Positions 7,079 through 42,335 of a stretch of 57,340 bases of DNA are shown here, piece by piece. Location of the stretch: the IMG/VR virus record IMGVR_UViG_3300049795_000025, positions 1 through 57,340 of that record. One strand, 5' to 3'. Numbering within the stretch: the stretch's first letter is position 1; each line of letters opens with the position of its first letter. The position numbers and the translations under genes are program-made. This DNA comes from a virus (lineage: Duplodnaviria; Caudoviricetes). The notes beneath the pieces are model-generated. The model was not told the origin of the DNA. It ran no database searches and saw only the letters and a list, made by a program, of their open reading frames with translations.

Positions 7079-7164
7079 GAGTGGCTCCACAAGTTCAGGG
7101 CCAGGCCTGCAACGAGCCCGAGGGGCAACGCAGCGAATGCCAGACCGTCGATGACACGCTTCAT
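7075..7164 (-). CDS. Small membrane peptide (29 aa)
   Basis: MKRVIDGLAFAALPLGLVAGLALNLWSHS; stop overlaps the next ATG. Confidence 0.45.
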   Translation of the reverse strand: MKRVIDGLAFAALPLGLVAGLALNLWSHS

Positions 7165-7197
7165 GTACCGACGGTAAGGCAGCCTCGATTGTTGCCG

Positions 7198-7722
7198 CTA
7201 ATGCTGGAGAATCCGATCTACAACCTCTTCCAGCATCCGCACATCTGGCATGTTGATTTGTCCGTAGGCCTTCACACGCTGCACAGCAGCGTTCAGCGTC
7301 TGCTTACGCTCAGCTTCCAGCATGTTATCGGTCTCTTCGGTCAGCACCTCGCCGATGTACGCATACATCTGCTGGAATATCCGCTGTGCGCGCGACACAT
7401 CCGGCGGCGTCCCCAGCATCGTAGCTGCAGCAAGCGCCTGCGACAGCGCCTCACGGACCGATAGCGGAACATCAGAACTCTGTACGAACGTGAAGGGCTC
7501 GCCGGAGGCAGCGAGCGCCGCCCGCTGCGAGGCCGCGTCCATGCGCTCGATACTGGACTGCTCAGCCCACCTATCGAGCGCCGCAGGGTTGACCCAGCCG
7601 CATCGCGTGCACTGTTCCATGACACGGATCAGCTTCGCACCAGTCTCGATAGGCATGACCGCACAGGCGTACCCGCGGAGCGAGGGGCACTCATCCGGCG
7701 AAATACTTGGCTGCATAATCAA
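7198..7722 (-). CDS. Hypothetical protein
   Basis: About 174-aa ORF with CxxC; coupled to the upstream gene. Confidence 0.65.
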   Translation of the reverse strand: MIMQPSISPDECPSLRGYACAVMPIETGAKLIRVMEQCTRCGWVNPAALDRWAEQSSIERMDAASQRAALAASGEPFTFVQSSDVPLSVREALSQALAAATMLGTPPDVSRAQRIFQQMYAYIGEVLTEETDNMLEAERKQTLNAAVQRVKAYGQINMPDVRMLEEVVDRILQH

Positions 7723-7883
7723 GACGACTTCACCTCGATGAACAGATCATAACCATCGTTGGTGGAAACGGCAATTACGTCTCGCTCTTCCTCCAGAACG
7801 GTGATGTTGGGCTCCAGATCGAGCTTCTCGGTATGGTCCTCGATCAACGCTGCAAGGACCTTGGTGAACTCCAGTCGATCCAT
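7719..7883 (-). CDS. Small acidic hypothetical protein (54 aa)
   Basis: MDRLEFTKVLAALIED...; GAGAAGG SD. Confidence 0.55.
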   Translation of the reverse strand: MDRLEFTKVLAALIEDHTEKLDLEPNITVLEEERDVIAVSTNDGYDLFIEVKSS

Positions 7884-7993
7884 CGTTACCTTCTCTTGGT
7901 TGAGCCGCTACGACGCTTGCCAGCGGCCAGTTTCTTTGTGCCGCCCGATGGCTCCGGCTTCGACCGTGAACCGCTGTTGCTCTCCGATCAGCA

Positions 7994-8377
7994 TCAGCTC
8001 TCACCCCAGAAGGGCGTGTCGGCGATGGTCATGACGCTGGCGATGGTCTCTGGCGACACGGTCTCGTCCGTCAGCCAGTTGCCCTGGAGCTCGCGGTCGA
8101 CGCACCAGAGTTCACCGCACTGCGAGGGCTTGCCGCAGTCGGTGCATGGATTGAGCAGCGCGCAGATCCGCTCGGCGAGGTCGCGGATCCAGCGCCGCAC
8201 CTTGAGGTAGGGCCAGAAGCGGTAGTGCAGGTGCCGGATGCCCCAGAGGATGCTGCCGGGCAGGGTCATCGGTGGGTTGCCGCAGACTGTGCCCGCGTCG
8301 TGGCCGTCGGGATCGTCGTGCCAGATGTCGAGGCGGATCGGCCGGACATCGAAGAGCAGGGTCGACGGGTCATGCAT
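7994..8377 (-). CDS. Hypothetical Cys-rich protein
   Basis: 127 aa with GGAGG SD. Confidence 0.65.
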   Translation of the reverse strand: MHDPSTLLFDVRPIRLDIWHDDPDGHDAGTVCGNPPMTLPGSILWGIRHLHYRFWPYLKVRRWIRDLAERICALLNPCTDCGKPSQCGELWCVDRELQGNWLTDETVSPETIASVMTIADTPFWGES

Positions 8378-8411
8378 CGTTGTCCTCCCGGGGGATCAGG
8401 GCCAGGTCGTG

Positions 8412-8612
8412 TTAGAGCGCTCGCAGGATCGGCGCGAAAGACAGCGCGAGGAAGGCCGCTACCCGCTTGAACATATTCCACTCGGTAGAGCGTCTGTGCC
8501 GTGGACGAACGTCTCGGAGTATCAGCAAAGCTGTGTCGTTTGCACGTGTCACAGTCTCCTGGGCTCTGGCTGATAGCTCGGCCAGCAGTTGCACAGCGAA
8601 CTCGCCATCCAT
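8412..8612 (-). CDS. Small hypothetical protein
   Basis: 66 aa with hydrophobic C-terminus. Confidence 0.5.
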   Translation of the reverse strand: MDGEFAVQLLAELSARAQETVTRANDTALLILRDVRPRHRRSTEWNMFKRVAAFLALSFAPILRAL

Positions 8613-8641
8613 GTCGATCCAATCCGTTTAGTCCAGAAGAA

Positions 8642-8684
8642 AAGGGGCCGCACTCAACCATCCCCGAATCGAGTGCGGCCCCTT
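8642..8684 (-). terminator. Intrinsic terminator
   Basis: Stem AAGGGGCCGCACTC/GAGTGCGGCCCCTT followed by TTCTTC on the minus strand. Confidence 0.75.
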
Positions 8685-8726
8685 CGTCAGGCCGTGACAA
8701 CAATGGCGGTCGACATCACAAACCCT

Positions 8727-8817
8727 CGCACGTGTCCAGGAATCGAACCTGGTCCGGTGGGCGCGCACCACCGGAATCCCCCAAGCCGCCGCGAAACAGC
8801 CTGTCGGTTCCACGCAC
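8727..8817 (-). ncRNA. tRNA-like element (non-canonical)
   Basis: Perfect T arm CCAGG-TTCGATT-CCTGG, preceding hairpin TCCGGTGG/CCACCGGA, closing stem GTGCGTG/CACGTGC; no canonical D or anticodon loop. Confidence 0.5.
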
Positions 8818-9217
8818 CGCCCAATTGTTGGCGTACGACCAATATGGACTTCCCAGTTGCACTGACAGCAGTGCTTCAACCGCTCAGGGCTCGGGGGTCG
8901 AGGCAAGCCCTTCGCTGGTAACCCGATGCTGGGCGCACCGGGCGCTATGTGTTGGGCTAGGCCTTGGGGAGGTACCTGCTGCATCGCCGTCGAGAAGGGA
9001 CCCGACCTAGCCCAACGAGATCGACGCTACCGGACCGACTTCGCTGCCGCTAACAGCAGAATCTCGGCTCTGCTAACGCCTCAGGAATGGACGCTCAGCG
9101 ATTATGCGCGCTATACCCTGGGTCGGGTACCCGAACGAGTTATCGGCAACGTAGGCGTCCAGATCTGCCCCGGCGCGCACTAGCCGACAGCGCGCAGCTA
9201 GCACGGCCAAGGCTCGA

Positions 9218-9424
9218 TCAGAGTCTGTGTTGCCGATTGGTCCGCTCTTCGACAAACTCCTGCGCCAGCTCCAATAATGATTTTTCGCTCTGCCCATGCT
9301 CGATCTTCCATCCCTGGCTGATCATCCATTCCAGCAAGTCATTGGCAAGCACGACGACAGCCTCACGCGAGACCTCCTCGATGCGCTTGACCTCGACATT
9401 GATCACTCGACAATCTTCTTCCAC
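9218..9424 (-). CDS. Hypothetical protein
   Basis: 68-aa ORF in a run of coupled genes. Confidence 0.55.
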   Translation of the reverse strand: MEEDCRVINVEVKRIEEVSREAVVVLANDLLEWMISQGWKIEHGQSEKSLLELAQEFVEERTNRQHRL

Positions 9425-9684
9425 TTACCATCGACAAGAGTGAAGCCGCCCGGCCAGAACTCGGGCCGGTCCAGATCGAACGGTTGGCCTGCGCGCGTAA
9501 CCGGGACATTGCCCGGTCGCATCTCCCACAAGAACGCGGCTCCAGACATCTCGTCCTCGGAGACCGACGGCAGTACGACTGCACCCTGTTCGTCGATCGC
9601 GACAGTCTGGACCTCATCACCATCGTACTTCAGCTCCACAAGCGTGTCGCCTACGTAGGTCCAGACCTTCGGCTGAATCTCCAT
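9403..9684 (-). CDS. Hypothetical protein
   Basis: 93 aa; TGATG overlap and GGAAGGG SD. Confidence 0.65.
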   Translation of the reverse strand: MEIQPKVWTYVGDTLVELKYDGDEVQTVAIDEQGAVVLPSVSEDEMSGAAFLWEMRPGNVPVTRAGQPFDLDRPEFWPGGFTLVDGKWKKIVE

Positions 9685-9842
9685 CAAAGCCCTTCCTGTT
9701 GCCGACCTGGATCGATCGTATCCATGCCCAGTTCTTGCTCAAATTGATTGATCTTGGCGATTGCCGCGGCGTCCGAGAAGCCGCGCCAGCGGAGGAACCA
9801 CTGCAGGATCTCCCGCTCTTCTGCTGTGAGGGGCTTAGGCAT
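9684..9842 (-). CDS. Small hypothetical protein (52 aa)
   Basis: MPKPLTAEEREILQWFLRW...; coupled at both ends. Confidence 0.55.
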   Translation of the reverse strand: MPKPLTAEEREILQWFLRWRGFSDAAAIAKINQFEQELGMDTIDPGRQQEGL

Positions 9843-17858: not shown

Positions 17859-18074
17859 CTAACTGCCGATAGCATCGTCCTTCCACTCTTCCATAGCTGC
17901 CAAGATAGCGCCGCGGCGCTTTGGATCCAACAGGTTGAGCCTAGCCGTTGCGTAGATCACCGCACGGACCGGGGCAGAGAGCCTGAACCAGTCTGACCTG
18001 CAAGCGAAGAGCGCGTTACTGATAACCTTCGTGCAATCGGGCCGAGGACAGTTGTGTTTACTCGTCGTTCTCAT
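17859..18074 (-). CDS. Small Cys-containing protein
   Basis: HNCPRPDC...FACRSDW zinc-ribbon-like pattern. Confidence 0.55.
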   Translation of the reverse strand: MRTTSKHNCPRPDCTKVISNALFACRSDWFRLSAPVRAVIYATARLNLLDPKRRGAILAAMEEWKDDAIGS

Positions 18075-29653: not shown

Positions 29654-29682
29654 TTTTCTGGTCCCTTCTAATTCCTACGAAG

Positions 29683-29752
29683 TGGGGAGGTGGGGAATTG
29701 AACCCCACTAGCTACATTGCCCTCCTGAACGGTGGTACCACCGTTCCTCCCC
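29683..29752 (-). ncRNA. 70-nt tRNA-like element without an anticodon arm
   Basis: Acceptor GGGGAGG/CCTCCCC plus A; T arm TGGGG-TTCAATT-CCCCA; palindromic hairpin AACGGTGGTACCACCGTT in the D-arm position. Confidence 0.65.
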
Positions 29753-29781
29753 AAGAGCCGCTAGCGGCGGCCAGTCGTGGA

Positions 29782-32707: not shown

Positions 32708-32752
32708 CGCCTGGTCCCTTCTAAAGTCCTTTTACTGGTGATCTTACGTGAC

Positions 32753-32948: not shown

Positions 32949-32991
32949 TTCTGGTCCCTTCATTTGTTTTGGAACTTCCCTTACAACAATG

Positions 32992-33513: not shown

Positions 33514-33562
33514 TACTGGTCCCTTCTTGGGGGAGGTCTCTCAATTCCTCCCAACAACAATG

Positions 33563-34754: not shown

Positions 34755-34847
34755 GCCTGGTCCCTTCTAAAGTGCTCTCATTTGGTCCGAGAGAACTGAG
34801 GGACGTCCGGGCCTAGGTCCGGCCACCCCTCAGGCTTATCGGGCCCC

Positions 34848-35989: not shown

Positions 35990-36035
35990 TTCTGGTCCCT
36001 TCTCCGGAAGCCGCTCTCTCGGCCTCACAAGAGCA

Positions 36036-38935: not shown

Positions 38936-38978
38936 ATCTGGTCCCTTCGGTTCGGGCCTCTCTCGGCCCAACAATTTC

Positions 38979-39031: not shown

Positions 39032-39760
39032 TTACTTAGCCCGGCAGACCGGGCCTCGACCGATCTCACGGCTGGTCTCGTCCGTTAGCGTCCGGCCGCA
39101 GTCACCGCAGACGCCCAGCTCTCGGCCGTAGAGGCAAAGCGCTGCTTCGGGGTCTTTGGCGATCTCAGCCAAGATCTCTGCACGCTGTTGGGGATTGCGG
39201 ATCGGGAAGGTGTCATCGCTCGCCTGCGCGCTGATGAAGGTCCGTCCGGCCCAACGTCCTCCAGCCTTGCCCTCGGTGACCCGATAGAACTTGACAACGC
39301 CATCCCGCAACAAGGCGTACCGACCAGGAGCGACAGTGCTGTGGGTCTCCCGCACCACCGTACCGGCCGGAGTACCGAAGTCAGTAATCGGAGCCGGAGC
39401 GGCCTTCCGGGGGAGGTCCTTATAGGCGGTGATGAACTGCGACCCTGCACTCTTTGCGAAACCCTGCTGCAGCCGTATCAATACGGCCTCAGCCGGACCA
39501 GGGGTCTCACGGGTGGTGGCAATATCAATGATCCACTTGGCCTGCTTCTCGGAGACCAGGCCCGGCCCCTGCTTTACCTGATAGCCACTGATCTCAATCA
39601 TCCACTCGTCCGAGCGGGTCGCGGTAGCAGTCTGCGCTCCGCCGGTGACGAACTCGACTGCTGCGCGCTCTTCGTTCACGTCTGCCGGAAGACCAGCGCC
39701 TGCCGTGTGGAAGGTCATCAAGAACCTCGCCGTGTGGGGGATGCGCTCGCGCTTGCTCAT
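39032..39760 (-). CDS. DUF6011-like zinc-ribbon protein
   Basis: CGDCGRTLTDETSREIGRGPVC C-terminus; conserved RBS before the ATG at 39760. Confidence 0.75.
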   Translation of the reverse strand: MSKRERIPHTARFLMTFHTAGAGLPADVNEERAAVEFVTGGAQTATATRSDEWMIEISGYQVKQGPGLVSEKQAKWIIDIATTRETPGPAEAVLIRLQQGFAKSAGSQFITAYKDLPRKAAPAPITDFGTPAGTVVRETHSTVAPGRYALLRDGVVKFYRVTEGKAGGRWAGRTFISAQASDDTFPIRNPQQRAEILAEIAKDPEAALCLYGRELGVCGDCGRTLTDETSREIGRGPVCRAK

Positions 39761-39798
39761 TGTCCTGGTCCCTTCGTTGCCCTCTCCTGGCAACCAAC

Positions 39799-39810
39799 AT
39801 CCTACGCCAA
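39799..39810 (-). promoter_or_regulatory. Early promoter, TTGGCG-TAGGAT
   Basis: Same motif and spacing as the other cassettes. Confidence 0.65.
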
Positions 39811-39840
39811 TCCGATCCAGAACGGAAGCACCCTCGCCGG

Positions 39841-39990
39841 AAACGACGATGGGCCCCGGGTTGAGAGTCCCGGGGCCCATCGGCCTCGGCAAGCTACACG
39901 AGGCAGGCAGTCGACTACGGGCGAGAGAAGGGACCAGCCAAATCCCGCCGTACCGACCGCATCCCAGGCCTAAGCCCAGGCTCGATCTGA
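39841..39990 (-). ncRNA. Predicted small RNA with anti-RBS loop
   Basis: Candidate -10 TAGACT at 39996-40001; long hairpin with loop TTTGGCTGGTCCCTTC; terminal 14-bp hairpin at 39847-39882. Confidence 0.55.
39847..39882 (-). terminator. Strong hairpin terminator
   Basis: CGATGGGCCCCGGG/CCCGGGGCCCATCG then TCGTTT. Confidence 0.7.
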
Positions 39991-40030
39991 AACACAGTCT
40001 ACGTCGCGCCAGAAACTGCCGCTAGTCGAC

Positions 40031-40417
40031 CTAGGTACCGCTGACGAACTTGGGGGCAGGTGGCCCGGCGTTCGTCGGAGAGAGCGAGGAGACTGCCGGG
40101 GCGACCGCTATGCCTAGTGCACCGAGGAACTGAATCACTAGCAGCATCCACTCGTCGCCGGAGATCCCGCCGGTGATGTAGCTGACGAGGAGGTTCAGCA
40201 CCAGGAACACCGCACCTACGAGGGTCTTGGCCTTAGCAAAGGCCGGAACGTTCGCAGTCGCCCAAACGTTGATGGTTCCAGCGAGTGCGATCACGACCAG
40301 AACCCACTCCGAGGCGCTGACGCCGTCAGCTGCCACCGCTCGGTACCCCGTGACTCCCGCCATCACCAGAGTCGCCAGCAAGATGGCGATCGACTTCCCG
40401 TGTGTCTTCCAATACAT
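40031..40417 (-). CDS. Holin-like membrane protein
   Basis: Four TM segments; internal duplication (SASEWVLVVI / SGDEWMLLVI); in the lysis cassette. Confidence 0.65.
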   Translation of the reverse strand: MYWKTHGKSIAILLATLVMAGVTGYRAVAADGVSASEWVLVVIALAGTINVWATANVPAFAKAKTLVGAVFLVLNLLVSYITGGISGDEWMLLVIQFLGALGIAVAPAVSSLSPTNAGPPAPKFVSGT

Positions 40418-40736
40418 TGCGTTTCCCCTCCCGAGGATCGCGGAGACTCCGCATCATGTGTAGCTGAATGAAGATCACGATACGCCAACTGATAGCAACC
40501 GCAATCCCCGTGAACAGGATAGCCCTTGTTGGCCAAAAGTAGCTCGGAACTCCGCCAATCGTAATGACCCAGGCGAAGTAGGCCAGAGCAACCGCAAGCG
40601 ATCCCATCACGGCCATGATATTGCGACCGGCCTTAGTCTCCCACCACGGTGCAAAGAATAGATATAGCATAGCAAACAAAACGGCTGATATCGCACAGCC
40701 GTAGAATGCCCAATCTCCGTATTCCCTCCAGCTCAT
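40326..40736 (-). CDS. Membrane protein (lysis cassette)
   Basis: Three TM segments; PWW...GRNIM. Confidence 0.65.
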   Translation of the reverse strand: MSWREYGDWAFYGCAISAVLFAMLYLFFAPWWETKAGRNIMAVMGSLAVALAYFAWVITIGGVPSYFWPTRAILFTGIAVAISWRIVIFIQLHMMRSLRDPREGKRNVLEDTREVDRHLAGDSGDGGSHGVPSGGS

Positions 40737-41347: not shown

Positions 41348-42214
41348 TCAGTTCTTCGGCGCCAGCGCCGCGATAATCTGGTCCAGCTTCGCGTCCAGGG
41401 CCGCGATCTGAAGCTTCAGATCGGTCAACCCGGCCCCATTGCTAGATGCCTGCGATGCGACCGAACTGATCCGGCTGTTCACGTCGGCAAGCTGCGGGGC
41501 CACTTCGGCCGCGACAGCCTCCGAGATACCCTGTCGACTGCCAATCCAAGCCAGCAGCTCACCGACTGCCTGAGGCTTATTTTTGCTGTATGGATTGGGG
41601 ACCTTGAATCCCCAGGTCTCTTCCGCGGTTGCCACGTCGGTACCCTCCAGCTCCTTGATGCGATTGAAAAGCCAGGTCCACGGGAAGTTCGTCCCGGGAT
41701 CGTTGTGCGTTCCCTTGTCCTCTGGAAACGCGTTCGTGATGTCGATGTGGCCGCAGAATCCGCGAGTCTTGCCGCCGTCCCAGGCGGAGCGTAGAGCAGC
41801 ACCCTGCAGTCGCGTCAACGGGTACTTACCCTTCTGCCGCAATTGAACGCAGAGCTTTGCGACGTTCTCCAGGGTCGCCGCGCTGGCCTTGTCGGCCCAC
41901 TGTACTTTGCTCTGTGCGGTTAGGCCGCAGATCTCGATCTGGATCCCGATGTCGTTACCGTGCGTCCTGGCTGCGTGCGCTTCGTCCTTCAGCTCAACAC
42001 ACTGCACAACCGAGTTCTGGTCCACAAAGAAATGCGTCGATGTGCCGTCGCTCCGACGCTTGTCGTAAGCCGCACCGTCCTCTGCGGACGACACATCCTC
42101 GTGTCCCTCGGTTGTATGGATCACGATGACCGAAGGCTGGCCGCTCTTCCGGCCCGTGGTATAGGACTTTGGCGGCCCCATCCACTTAGCGATTGGTACG
42201 TCAGGCTTTGCCAT
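41348..42214 (-). CDS. Endolysin, N-acetylmuramoyl-L-alanine amidase (amidase_2)
   Basis: VIHTTEG, STHFFVD, AHAA, GHID, HNDPG; start MAKPDV with GAGG SD. Confidence 0.9.
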   Translation of the reverse strand: MAKPDVPIAKWMGPPKSYTTGRKSGQPSVIVIHTTEGHEDVSSAEDGAAYDKRRSDGTSTHFFVDQNSVVQCVELKDEAHAARTHGNDIGIQIEICGLTAQSKVQWADKASAATLENVAKLCVQLRQKGKYPLTRLQGAALRSAWDGGKTRGFCGHIDITNAFPEDKGTHNDPGTNFPWTWLFNRIKELEGTDVATAEETWGFKVPNPYSKNKPQAVGELLAWIGSRQGISEAVAAEVAPQLADVNSRISSVASQASSNGAGLTDLKLQIAALDAKLDQIIAALAPKN

Positions 42215-42335
42215 CCTCTTCCTCGTCCTCCTTGTCGTCCTCCGGGATCTCCTCCGAGGGCTCAGCCTCATAGACCGGAGCGTCAGCTGCCTTCTTCGGC
42301 TCGGGCGGCAACTCACTTAGCACCAAACTGAACAT
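42201..42335 (-). CDS. Small acidic protein (44 aa)
   Basis: MFSLVLSELPPEPKK...EDEEEDGKA fills the gap before the lysin. Confidence 0.4.
   Translation of the reverse strand: MFSLVLSELPPEPKKAADAPVYEAEPSEEIPEDDKEDEEEDGKA

What the first reader, a model, noticed from the sequence alone, without database searches (positions are those of the whole stretch)
39841..40001. Predicted phage sRNA whose loop is the exact antisense of the shared early-gene RBS
Seen on the minus strand: a candidate -10 (CG-TAGACT, 39996-40001), then a long stem GCGGTCGG-TACGG-CGGGA / TCTCG-C-CCGTA-G-TCGACTGC closing the 16-nt loop TTTGGCTGGTCCCTTC, then a 14-bp terminator hairpin. The loop holds CTGGTCCCTTC (39937-39927), the perfect complement of GAAGGGACCAG at 8 gene starts, extending to 12-13 nt for several. 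It is the only perfect reverse-orientation copy I found, and no start codon follows it on the plus strand. Inference: a ~150-nt trans-acting RNA, or a late-operon 3' UTR fragment, that silences a whole early regulon through one shared RBS sequence. I do not know of a described equivalent.
Basis: partly seen in the sequence, partly recalled or inferred. Interest (0 to 1): 0.9.

Follow-up and report, generated by a model that had tools for sequence, protein, structure and literature searches.

The report
Phage RNA antisense to shared RBS
An uncultured soil phage and its relatives carry a small, conserved, structured RNA unit whose exposed loop is the exact mirror image of the ribosome-binding signal shared by their replication genes, which suggests a built-in RNA switch that turns those genes off.

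Summary
GAAGGGACCAG precedes 8 start codons on the minus strand. Its only perfect reverse copy (39927-39937) sits in the 16-nt loop of a long hairpin between the lysis cassette and the first non-structural gene. I anchored on the upstream gene, not on the motif. All 8 related contigs with enough downstream sequence carry the invariant loop GGYTGGTCCCTTC at the same place. The stem arms differ and covary: 7 of 11 pairs change on both sides, and G.U outnumbers A.C 14 to 3, which puts the structure on the gene strand. The unit has a promoter-like signal (TAGCGG-N16-18-TANNNT, 20 of 22 sites) and a terminator whose loop always holds CTCTCA. That loop is complementary to the GAGAG loops of 5' hairpins upstream of many motif copies. 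Rfam has no match. Cluster K1 mycobacteriophages show an independent parallel: their single reverse start-associated sequence (SAS) also lies in a hairpin loop, in the gap where late transcription is reported to start. Microbacterium phage Rie18 has a similar start motif but no antisense copy. Best reading: a trans-acting antisense RNA that occludes the shared RBS. I found no expression or repression data to test this.

The parts
40031..40417 (-). Last gene of the lysis cassette: a holin-like membrane protein (128 aa). Its stop codon lies 6 nt before the promoter-like signal. I used it as a motif-independent anchor to find relatives.
   Evidence: phrog_17055. The neighbouring gene 40326-40736 is Pfam Phage_holin_2 and 41348-42316 is an Amidase_2 endolysin. 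Alignment A1 of four homologues shows 57-59% identity.
39996..40024 (-). Promoter-like signal: TAGCGG (40024-40019), a 17-nt spacer, then TAGACT (40001-39996).
   Evidence: TAGCGGCA is present at this place in the window and in all 8 relatives. Across the window and relatives, 20 of 22 sense-strand TAGCGGCA sites are followed at 16-18 nt by TANNNT, against a background of 1.05%. Only 1 antisense TAGCGGCA occurs. The sigma-70 consensus scan does not call it.
39963..39980 (-). Hairpin 0 (CCUGGGC-UUAG-GCCUGGG).
   Evidence: MFE fold. An equivalent hairpin with a different sequence is present in L145, L147 and L152.
39907..39960 (-). Hairpin 1: a bipartite stem of about 18 bp that closes the 16-nt loop.
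   Evidence: Folds. For covariation on 9 aligned sequences: 11 pairs, 91.4% of cells paired, and 7 pairs with changes on both sides. The covariation score is 0.487, against 0.243 for shuffles (0 of 500 reach it) and 0.07-0.12 for slid partners. G.U cells number 14 and A.C cells 3.
39927..39942 (-). Apical loop UUUGGCUGGUCCCUUC. The antisense of the start motif, CUGGUCCCUUC, is at 39937-39927.
   Evidence: Exact reverse complement of GAAGGGACCAG. GGYTGGTCCCTTC is invariant in 9 of 9 homologues: 12 of the 18 invariant columns of the 99-column alignment lie in it. Mean unpaired probability is 0.80.
39883..39904 (-). Hairpin 2, a small stem-loop.
   Evidence: Folds. A hairpin is present at this position in the relatives, with other sequences.
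39841..39882 (-). Terminator-like hairpin: 14-bp stem, loop ACUCUCAA at 39868-39861, tail UCGUCGUUU.
   Evidence: Folds. The apical loop contains CTCTCA in 9 of 9 homologues although the stems differ. Loop unpaired probability is 0.97-1.00. The terminator scan does not call it because the T-run is weak.
39758..39810 (-). First target unit. It comprises a promoter-like TTGGCGTAGGAT (39810-39799), a 5' hairpin UUGCC-AGGAGAG-GGCAA (39793-39777), the motif GAAGGGACCAG (39775-39765) and the ATG (39760-39758) of a DUF6011 gene (39032-39760).
   Evidence: TGGNGTANNNT occurs 8 times on the sense strand and 0 times on the antisense strand of the window.
38938..38948 (-). Motif copy before ATG 38935 (DUF2786 gene), with a GGCC-GAGAGA-GGCC hairpin upstream.
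35992..36002 (-). Motif copy before ATG 35989 (gene with a Rho_N domain), with a GAGAG-loop hairpin upstream.
34757..34767 (-). Motif copy before GTG 34754, with TGAGAG upstream.
33516..33526 (-). Motif copy before ATG 33513, with a GGAGG-AAUUGAGAGA-CCUCC hairpin upstream.
32951..32961 (-). Motif copy before ATG 32948.
32711..32721 (-). Motif copy before ATG 32707.
29658..29668 (-). Motif copy before ATG 29653, preceded by a tRNA-like element.

Best explanation
The stretch 40024-39841 (minus strand) is a conserved non-coding RNA unit of an uncultured actinophage family. It lies between the lysis cassette and the first non-structural gene. It has a promoter-like signal, three to four hairpins and a terminator-like hairpin. 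It is therefore made either as an RNA of about 140 nt or as the 3' end of the lysis/late transcript. Its main hairpin exposes an invariant C-rich loop that is the Watson-Crick antisense of the phage's private start-associated sequence (SAS, a Shine-Dalgarno-like core plus a private extension). This SAS sits 2-4 nt before the start codons of 8 replication/early-region genes in the window, and 4-13 in the relatives. The proposed mechanism is that the loop pairs in trans with these 5' leaders and out-competes the 30S subunit for the ribosome-binding site. Translation of the whole motif-bearing gene set is thereby switched off, and the mRNAs are probably destabilised, once the RNA has accumulated. 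A second contact is possible between the CUCUCA loop of the terminator hairpin and the GAGAG loops of the 5'-terminal hairpins of many targets. Shown here: the element, its conservation, the covarying stem, the strand, the accessibility of the loop, and complementarity to every motif copy. Inferred: transcription, timing, pairing in vivo and repression.
For: (1) The only perfect reverse copy of the motif lies in the apical loop of a stable hairpin (z = -4.70) in a 270-nt intergenic gap.

(2) Relatives were found through the upstream protein, not the motif. All 8 distinct contigs with enough downstream sequence carry TGGTCCCTTC 63-86 nt after a conserved TAGCGGCA.

(3) In each of 5 long relatives, the 9-mer GAAGGGACC occurs 7-13 times on the gene strand. 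It occurs once on the other strand, at this place; in one record a second copy lies inside an ORF.

(4) The stem covaries while the loop is invariant. G.U pairs outnumber A.C 14 to 3, which places the structure on the gene-sense strand.

(5) A promoter-like class TAGCGG-N16-18-TANNNT holds at 20 of 22 sites against a 1% background.

(6) The antisense 10-mer has a mean unpaired probability of 0.69-0.80 in 7 of 8 homologues.

(7) In a scan of 38,208 windows on both strands, 10 of the 20 best duplexes with the loop are motif-type gene starts, including all 8 perfect copies. The motif:loop duplex is -20.2 kcal/mol, against -9.0 for the motif with the recalled 16S 3' tail.

(8) Where the loop begins with C (the window), motif position 11 is G in 8 of 9 copies. 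Where it begins with U (5 relatives), position 11 is G in 19 and A in 25 of 44 copies, so all can pair through A-U or G.U. Fisher p = 0.024.

(9) A second complementary pair exists. CTCTCA is in 9 of 9 terminator loops. GAGAG lies within 30 nt upstream of 22 of 53 motif copies, against a 3-4% background, mostly in hairpin loops.

(10) There is an independent parallel. In 5 of 5 Cluster K1 mycobacteriophages examined, the single reverse SAS lies in a 10-nt hairpin loop on the transcribed strand. In Adephagia it lies in the gp92-gp93 gap, where late transcription is reported to initiate (PMC11373665, section 19).

(11) Precedent in the host phylum: B11/6C represses translation through C-rich loops that pair with ribosome-binding sites (PMC10470900, passages).
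Against: No transcript, 5' end, timing or repression was tested here.

The core motif and its antisense are invariant across the family. The only co-variation test is therefore position 11, where p = 0.024 and the sites within one genome are not independent.

The invariant GGY at the 5' side of the antisense stretch is not explained by motif complementarity.

In most relatives an alternative inner hairpin GGUCC-CUUC-GGACC could sequester half of the antisense stretch. It is the MFE form in L144, where unpaired probability is 0.43.

The consensus scans call neither a sigma-70 promoter nor a terminator here.

The promoter-like class of the RNA unit also precedes some motif-bearing genes. A simple late-RNA-versus-early-mRNA logic is therefore not established.

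One RNA would have to titrate 8-13 mRNA species.

Microbacterium phage Rie18 is the closest cultured phage by capsid protein. It has an analogous start motif (10 sense copies of GAAAGGACC) but no antisense copy. An antisense partner is thus not a general requirement of such motifs.

The covariation alignment was fitted to the model structure, and two of its nine rows (L147, L151) are near-identical.
Confidence: 0.55

Rival explanations
1. The element acts in cis as a 3'-UTR or insulator. It is only the structured 3' end of the lysis/late operon. The antisense loop acts on read-through transcripts by pairing with the first downstream motif copy, or it stabilises the 3' end. Late transcription running past the terminator would then not re-express the early genes.
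For: [quoted passage not shown] The first motif copy lies 160-330 nt downstream in the window, G001, G003, G004 and G005. The terminator has a weak U-tract, so read-through is plausible.
Against: A conserved promoter-like signal sits at the 5' edge of the element. One cis contact would block only the first gene. In G002 the first motif-type copy is about 1.4 kb downstream. Complementarity is equally good to all copies.
Confidence: 0.17
2. The loop is a protein-binding site or a mimic of the 16S rRNA 3' tail. The invariant loop GGYUGGUCCCUUC would be recognised by a phage or host protein, for example a factor that normally contacts the anti-Shine-Dalgarno tail or a dedicated RNA-binding regulator. 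On this reading its complementarity to the start motif follows only from both resembling the SD/anti-SD pair.
For: The loop resembles the recalled anti-SD tail. The two invariant G residues 5' of the antisense stretch and the possible GGUCC-CUUC-GGACC mini-hairpin are not explained by motif pairing.
Against: Complementarity covers all 11 nt, including the ACCAG extension that has no counterpart in SD/anti-SD pairing. The wobble-compatible pattern at position 11 fits RNA-RNA pairing. Cluster K1 phages pair a different motif with a different, matching loop.
Confidence: 0.12
3. The motif is an orientation-independent DNA operator. A DNA-binding regulator would bind it as double-stranded DNA, and the reverse copy would be one more operator at the late/early junction.
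For: Pope et al. favoured DNA-binding proteins for the extended start-associated sequences of Cluster K (PMC3203893, passages). The Adephagia paper suggests a regulator that binds the inverted repeats.
Against: Every sense copy sits at a fixed 2-4 nt from a start codon, which points to translation. The reverse copy lies in the loop of a stem that covaries and has 14 G.U against 3 A.C pairs. A duplex-DNA site would not require that.
Confidence: 0.06
4. The reverse copy is a chance match or a relic with no function, for example a remnant of an inverted gene start.
For: A single 11-mer match. My estimate from base composition is about 0.015 expected copies on one strand of 57 kb, which is low but not negligible for a motif that was looked for.
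Against: The loop is invariant in 9 of 9 homologues at the same place, while the flanking stems diverged and covaried.
Confidence: 0.02

Closest known systems
[quoted passage not shown] 2011, PMC3203893, passages read; Adephagia paper PMC11373665, section 19 and passages read)
   Same: Both have an asymmetric 11-13-bp motif containing an SD-like core, a few nt before the start codons of non-structural genes only. Both are in one orientation apart from a single reverse copy. In both, a subset of copies is preceded by a promoter plus an inverted repeat or hairpin. I found that the K1 reverse copy also lies in a hairpin loop on the transcribed strand, in 5 of 5 phages.
   Different: The motif sequence is different (GAAGGGACCAG against GGGATAGGAGCCC). 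The phage lineage is unrelated and uncultured, and the genome is unidirectional with no integrase seen. The reverse copy sits after the lysis cassette here, but near the right end, where late transcription starts, in K1. In the passages I read, the published work leaves the function and the reverse copy unexplained.
B11/6C small RNA of Actinobacteria (PMC10470900, passages read; Mai et al. 2019 seen only as a reference title)
   Same: It is a structured sRNA whose unpaired C-rich loops pair with G-rich ribosome-binding sites of many mRNAs and repress translation, in the same host phylum.
   Different: It is encoded by the host and its loops are plain C-runs that target generic G-tracts. Here the loop is an 11-nt antisense of a private motif carried by the phage's own genes. 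Rfam scans of the window gave no hit at gathering thresholds. The region at E up to 10 gave 8 weak hits to other families, none of them 6C.
c4 antisense RNA of phages P1 and P7 (recalled, no paper read)
   Same: It is a phage-encoded trans-acting RNA whose two loops pair with two short complementary sequences around a ribosome-binding site. This resembles the two loops here (the anti-motif loop and the CUCUCA loop).
   Different: c4 controls one operon (icd/ant) for immunity, not a regulon of 8-13 separately promoted genes. The Rfam scan of the region at E up to 10 listed no c4 hit.
T4 RegB endoribonuclease and RegA translational repressor (recalled, no paper read)
   Same: The logic is the same: early genes share a feature in their ribosome-binding sites, which lets the phage shut them off together after the early phase.
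   Different: Those effectors are proteins. Here the proposed effector is an RNA.
Abundant small non-coding RNAs of Cluster A mycobacteriophages (PMC5712189, passages read)
   Same: They are actinophage intergenic RNAs with no conserved ORF.
   Different: They are made from the early promoter Pleft, no target or function is known, and no link to a start motif is described.

Membership tests
SAS/ESAS-type start-motif system (Cluster K definition) | Asymmetric conserved motif within a few nt upstream of start codons | tested here: met
   8 of 8 perfect minus-strand copies lie 2-4 nt before ATG or GTG. Three near copies lie 1-3 nt before ATG.
SAS/ESAS-type start-motif system (Cluster K definition) | Restricted to non-structural genes; absent from the virion and lysis genes | tested here: met
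   All perfect copies lie between 29658 and 39775, downstream of the lysis cassette. Structural genes lie at 40-57 kb and 0.5-4.8 kb.
SAS/ESAS-type start-motif system (Cluster K definition) | One orientation, with at most a single reverse copy not associated with a gene start | tested here: met
   The window has 8 sense copies and 1 reverse copy. The relatives have 7-13 sense copies and 1 reverse copy at the homologous place.
SAS/ESAS-type start-motif system (Cluster K definition) | A subset of copies preceded by a promoter plus an inverted repeat (ESAS) | tested here: met
   TGGNGTANNNT followed by a hairpin with a GAGAG loop precedes many copies. GAGAG lies within 30 nt upstream of 22 of 53 copies.
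SAS/ESAS-type start-motif system (Cluster K definition) | Consensus GGGATAGGAGCCC and membership of Cluster K | tested here: not met
   The motif is different. There is no nucleotide match to any cultured phage. The capsid protein is at most 40% identical to cultured phages.
Independent sRNA gene (promoter, non-coding body, intrinsic terminator) | Promoter | tested here: inconclusive
   A conserved promoter-like class holds at 20 of 22 sites, but the -35 is non-canonical and there is no sigma-70 consensus call. No transcription start data exist.
Independent sRNA gene (promoter, non-coding body, intrinsic terminator) | Terminator | tested here: inconclusive
   A GC-rich hairpin of 14 bp or more, followed by a T-containing tail, is present in 9 of 9 homologues. 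The T-run is below the threshold of the scan.
Independent sRNA gene (promoter, non-coding body, intrinsic terminator) | No conserved ORF | tested here: met
   Only a 15-codon ATG frame is present in the window. That ATG is absent in the aligned relatives.
Independent sRNA gene (promoter, non-coding body, intrinsic terminator) | Transcript observed | not testable with these tools
   There is no cultured member. See Tried and rejected for the sequencing-run search.
Rfam families, including 6C (B11) and C4 | Score at or above the gathering threshold of the family's covariance model | tested here: not met
   0 hits at gathering thresholds in the whole window. At E up to 10 in 39600-40200 there are only 8 weak, unrelated hits, the best being sodF sRNA at 25.1 bits against a threshold of 46.

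The most novel reading that the evidence does not exclude
Antisense RNAs may be the missing partner of start-associated sequences. At least two unrelated actinophage lineages, this uncultured family and the Cluster K1 mycobacteriophages, each encode exactly one hairpin-presented antisense copy of their own private ribosome-binding motif. Each copy sits at the junction with late transcription. The RNA would recognise its targets through two loops: the anti-motif loop with the start motif, and the CUCUCA loop with the GAGAG loop of the 5'-terminal hairpin. It would act as a timer that shuts down the whole set of separately promoted early genes. On this reading the conserved non-SD part of the motif exists to make the phage's own mRNAs addressable by its RNA without touching host mRNAs.
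Probability: 0.4. Interest if true: 0.88.

Novelty: new variant of a known kind. Interest (0 to 1): 0.8.

Why it matters
Start-associated sequences have been known in Cluster K mycobacteriophages since 2011. Papers from 2024 and 2025 (passages read) still call their role unknown or ill-defined. The 2011 paper asked whether their partner is a protein or an RNA.

This element gives a concrete RNA candidate that can be tested directly, and it points to the matching hairpin in Cluster K1 phages. Those phages are cultured, can be engineered, and already have RNA-seq data.

If confirmed, it would be a phage-encoded regulator that addresses a whole regulon through a private ribosome-binding code. It would be a compact temporal switch at the level of translation, and an orthogonal RBS/anti-RBS pair for use in Actinobacteria.

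Tried and rejected
Nucleotide search of the region against cultured phages gave no match.

Single-protein searches for relatives found little. The DUF6011 protein gave one distant locus, L002. L002 has 71% GC and a divergent gene order, and was not informative. The 128-aa upstream protein alone gave none. An alignment of four homologues was needed.

A scan with the 17-mer of the promoter-like region found the three known relatives plus two unrelated contigs that have neither the motif nor its antisense.

Rfam gave nothing.

Sequencing runs: no RNA holder listed. The single listed holder is a DNA run that may be the source sample.

PHROGs on ten ORFs in 4.8-9.4 kb gave no useful annotation. I therefore could not place the start of the late operon or assign a time class to the TAGCGG-type promoters. 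I dropped the idea that they are late promoters, because the same class precedes some motif-bearing genes.

The second antisense 9-mer in G004 lies inside an ORF and is not homologous to anything in the window.

I checked whether the closest cultured phage, Rie18, has an antisense copy of its own start motif. It has none.

The cmsearch gave two weak hits, in L154 and L130 (E = 0.11 and 0.43). I dropped them before the pair count by re-running at E up to 1e-5.

L150 was left out of all counts because only 38 nt follow its gene.

Supplementary files of the papers were not opened. Figures S3 and S4 and the tables of Pope 2011, and the supplementary tables of PMC12699233, may list the reverse copies.

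Literature searches for a described anti-SAS RNA found none. These cover only the held library.
Full report
**Context.** The window is a complete 57,340-bp virus record with direct terminal repeats and 55-62% G+C. Nearly all genes are on the minus strand. Read in that direction the order is:
- terminase (3684-2170) and portal (2270-573);
- across the record ends, a head-morphogenesis protein, the major capsid protein (54786-53629), the tail genes and an Amidase_2 endolysin (42316-41348);
- a holin (40736-40326) and a holin-like membrane protein (40417-40031);
- a 270-nt gap;
- a DUF6011 gene (39760-39032), a DUF2786 gene, a helicase, an exonuclease, a DNA polymerase (20487-18058) and a primase (13857-11395).

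No cultured phage matches at the nucleotide level. The capsid protein is at most 40% identical to those of Microbacterium phages. The finding therefore lies at the junction between the lysis cassette and the non-structural genes of an uncultured actinophage-like virus.

GAGGGACCAG-type counts are as follows: GAAGGGACCAG has 8 perfect copies on the minus strand, each 2-4 nt before ATG (7) or GTG (1). It has one perfect copy on the plus strand at 39927-39937. At up to one mismatch there are 12 matches, against 1.24 expected, and 0 of 100 shuffles reach 12. On the minus strand the reverse copy reads CUGGUCCCUUC. It occupies the 3' part of a 16-nt apical loop closed by a bipartite stem of about 18 bp. 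A small hairpin and a 14-bp GC-rich hairpin with a T-containing tail follow. The 161 nt fold with z = -4.70. The consensus scans call neither a promoter nor a terminator here.

**Relatives.** The capsid protein found three full-length relatives (G001-G003, about 79% identity). Each has several motif copies on the gene strand and exactly one on the other strand, about 13.5 kb downstream of the capsid gene, as in the window. To avoid selecting on the motif, I aligned the upstream holin-like protein from four genomes. I then used that alignment to fetch loci from viral and metagenome contigs. This gave 9 distinct contigs. One (L150) ends 38 nt after the gene. All 8 others contain TGGTCCCTTC 63-86 nt after a conserved TAGCGGCA that abuts the stop codon. 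In a MAFFT alignment of 8 sequences, 18 of 99 columns are invariant, and 12 of those lie in the loop motif GGYTGGTCCCTTC. In five long relatives the 9-mer GAAGGGACC occurs in these sense/antisense numbers: 10/1, 7/1, 7/1, 13/2 and 13/1. The extra antisense copy in G004 lies inside an ORF.

**Structure and strand.** A covariance model of the main hairpin re-aligned nine sequences. L147 and L151 are near-identical. Of 11 modelled pairs, 91.4% of cells pair and 7 pairs show changes on both sides. The covariation score is 0.487. Column shuffles give 0.243 and 0 of 500 reach the observed score. Slid partners give 0.07-0.12. The alignment was fitted to the structure, which favours it. One sequence (L153) remained misaligned on its 3' side, which works against it. 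G.U pairs outnumber A.C 14 to 3, so the helix belongs to the gene-sense strand, as RNA. In partition-function folds of the whole unit, the antisense 10-mer has a mean unpaired probability of 0.69-0.80 in 7 of 8 homologues. In L144 it is 0.43, because an inner hairpin GGUCC-CUUC-GGACC forms there. That alternative is possible in most relatives but not in the window.

**A transcription unit of its own?** TAGCGGCA recurs on the gene strand at intergenic sites in all these genomes: 22 sites in the sequence examined, with one on the other strand. In 20 of the 22 it is followed, 16-18 nt after TAGCGG, by TANNNT, against a background of 1.05%. The element carries this signal in every genome, with -10-like hexamers TAGACT, TAAACT, TACCGT or TAACGT. 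The box is not a sigma-70 consensus, however, and in four relatives the hexamer is also part of a small palindrome. The same class precedes some motif-bearing genes, so I cannot assign it a time class. Whatever the promoter does, the element is also the 3' end of the lysis operon.

**The target side.** Many motif copies belong to a larger unit. It has a promoter-like TGGNGTANNNT, which occurs sense/antisense 8/0, 10/0, 8/0, 5/0, 5/0 and 4/1. About 8 nt later comes a hairpin such as GGGCCG-AGAGAG-CGGCCC. About 6 nt after that come the motif, then 2-6 nt, then ATG. GAGAG lies within 30 nt upstream of 22 of 53 motif copies, against a 3-4% background. The apical loop of the element's terminator hairpin contains CTCTCA in 9 of 9 homologues, although the stems differ. 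CTCTCA is complementary to (T)GAGAG. In an antiparallel pairing, the order of the two loops in the RNA (anti-motif 5', CUCUCA 3') matches the order of the two modules in the targets (GAGAG 5', motif 3'). This second contact is an inference from sequence only.

**Pairing.** A duplex scan of the 16-nt loop against 38,208 windows on both strands ranks its own complement first. Ten of the next 19 non-overlapping windows are motif-type gene starts, including all 8 perfect copies. The window mean is -10.3 kcal/mol with sd 3.0, and the hits range from -21.5 to -25.5. The motif:loop duplex is -20.2 kcal/mol. The motif paired with the recalled 3' tail of 16S rRNA gives -9.0, a 7-bp helix with one G.U. 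The RNA would therefore out-compete the ribosome. The first loop base is C in the window and in L152, and U in the others. With C, motif position 11 is G in 8 of 9 copies. With U, it is G in 19 and A in 25 of 44 copies, all of which can pair. Fisher p = 0.024, but sites within a genome are not independent. This pattern is what RNA pairing predicts, though it is weak evidence.

**An independent parallel, and a negative case.** Pope et al. [quoted passage not shown] They left open whether the partner is RNA or protein (PMC3203893, passages).

In Anaya I find 16 forward copies and one reverse copy at up to 2 mismatches in the 40,836 bases examined (record positions 20000-60835). The reverse copy lies in the 385-nt gp96-gp97 gap, which folds with z = -7.28. 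In 5 of 5 K1 phages examined, out of 107 records that match this gap, the reverse copy occupies the 10-nt loop of a long hairpin on the transcribed strand. In Adephagia it is at 58682-58694, between gp92 and gp93. [quoted passage not shown] Whether the hairpin lies downstream of that start is not known.

By contrast, Microbacterium phage Rie18 has the same unidirectional layout and its own start motif, GGGAAAGGACCCC, with 10 sense copies of GAAAGGACC. It has no antisense copy better than one mismatched 9-mer inside a coding region. An antisense partner is thus found in some lineages that use such motifs, not in all.

**Mechanism and rivals.** The best-supported reading is a trans-acting antisense RNA that occludes the shared ribosome-binding site of the phage's own non-structural genes (confidence 0.55). 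The rivals are:
- a purely cis role on read-through transcripts or as a 3'-end structure (0.17);
- a protein-binding loop or mimic of the 16S tail (0.12);
- an orientation-independent DNA operator (0.06), disfavoured by the fixed distance to start codons and by the covarying, G.U-rich stem;
- chance (0.02).

**Comparison and novelty.** The element works like B11/6C of Actinobacteria, where C-rich loops pair with ribosome-binding sites (PMC10470900, passages). It also works like the two-loop c4 RNA of P1/P7 (recalled). Its logic resembles T4 RegA/RegB (recalled). It is not a member of any Rfam family. The target side is a new member of the SAS/ESAS kind. Literature searches found no paper that describes an antisense RNA partner of start-associated sequences. 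They cover only the held library, and supplements were not opened. I rate it a new variant of a known kind.

**Limits.** No member of the family is cultured. There are no RNA data. The family sample is 9 sequences, 8 of them effectively independent. Promoter and terminator rest on conservation, not on mapped ends. The repression itself is untested.

Noticed in passing
window 29683-29753 (-): A tRNA-like element lies directly upstream of the motif copy at 29668. It has an acceptor-like stem and a canonical T-arm, GTGGGG-TTCAATT-CCCCAC. Rfam hits are weak and below threshold: tRNA-Sec 24.2 bits against 47, and mascRNA-menRNA 23.1 bits against 42.5. ARAGORN finds no tRNA. The same T-arm sequence precedes a motif copy in G002 and G003. 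It may be an RNase P/Z processing signal or a tRNA remnant.
   Followed up: partly
window 8982-9052 (-): A second TAGCGG-N17-TAGCGT promoter-like site at 9052 is followed after about 25 nt by a hairpin GUCGGG-UCCCUU-CUCGAC. The loop of this hairpin is the one-mismatch plus-strand motif copy at 8994-9004. It lies 10 nt before the ATG (8984) of an unannotated 118-aa ORF. It may be a second anti-SD-like loop or a chance match. I did not check its conservation in relatives.
   Followed up: partly
window and loci L159-L163, gene strand: Two strand-specific promoter-like classes occur. TGGNGTANNNT lies directly upstream of motif-bearing leaders. TAGCGG-N16-18-TANNNT occurs in the window at 40024, 9052 and 7200, with a variant TATCGG at 17871. 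Their timing and the polymerase or sigma factor that reads them are unknown.
   Followed up: partly
window 7100-9800: This stretch has competing ORFs on both strands and no PHROG hit for six candidate ORFs. It may hold a small plus-strand cassette or the physical genome end.
   Followed up: no
L144, L145, L146, L147, L153 and G001 (the 62122-end of G001, L140 read in reverse), 60-150 nt after the terminator hairpin: A conserved stretch CAATTCNTACGAACCTGGTTCC with the palindrome GAACC-N-GGTTC lies between the terminator and the first early promoter in the relatives. It is absent from the window. It is a possible operator.
   Followed up: no
L170 (Microbacterium phage Rie18, record 6436-56435): Rie18 has its own start motif, GGGAAAGGACCCC(G), before about 10 genes, with GGAGTAGAGT-type promoter-like boxes upstream. 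The first gene after its holin uses GAAAGGACCAGGACC-ATG, close to the window's first target. Gene 20 is preceded by a cis hairpin GTCCTT...AAAGGAC that could sequester its own SD.
   Followed up: partly
L002 3960-4000: The distant DUF6011 homologue (32% identity, 71% G+C contig) is preceded by GGGAAGGGCCAG-CGACA-ATG. This is a near relative of the window's motif in an otherwise very different genome.
   Followed up: no
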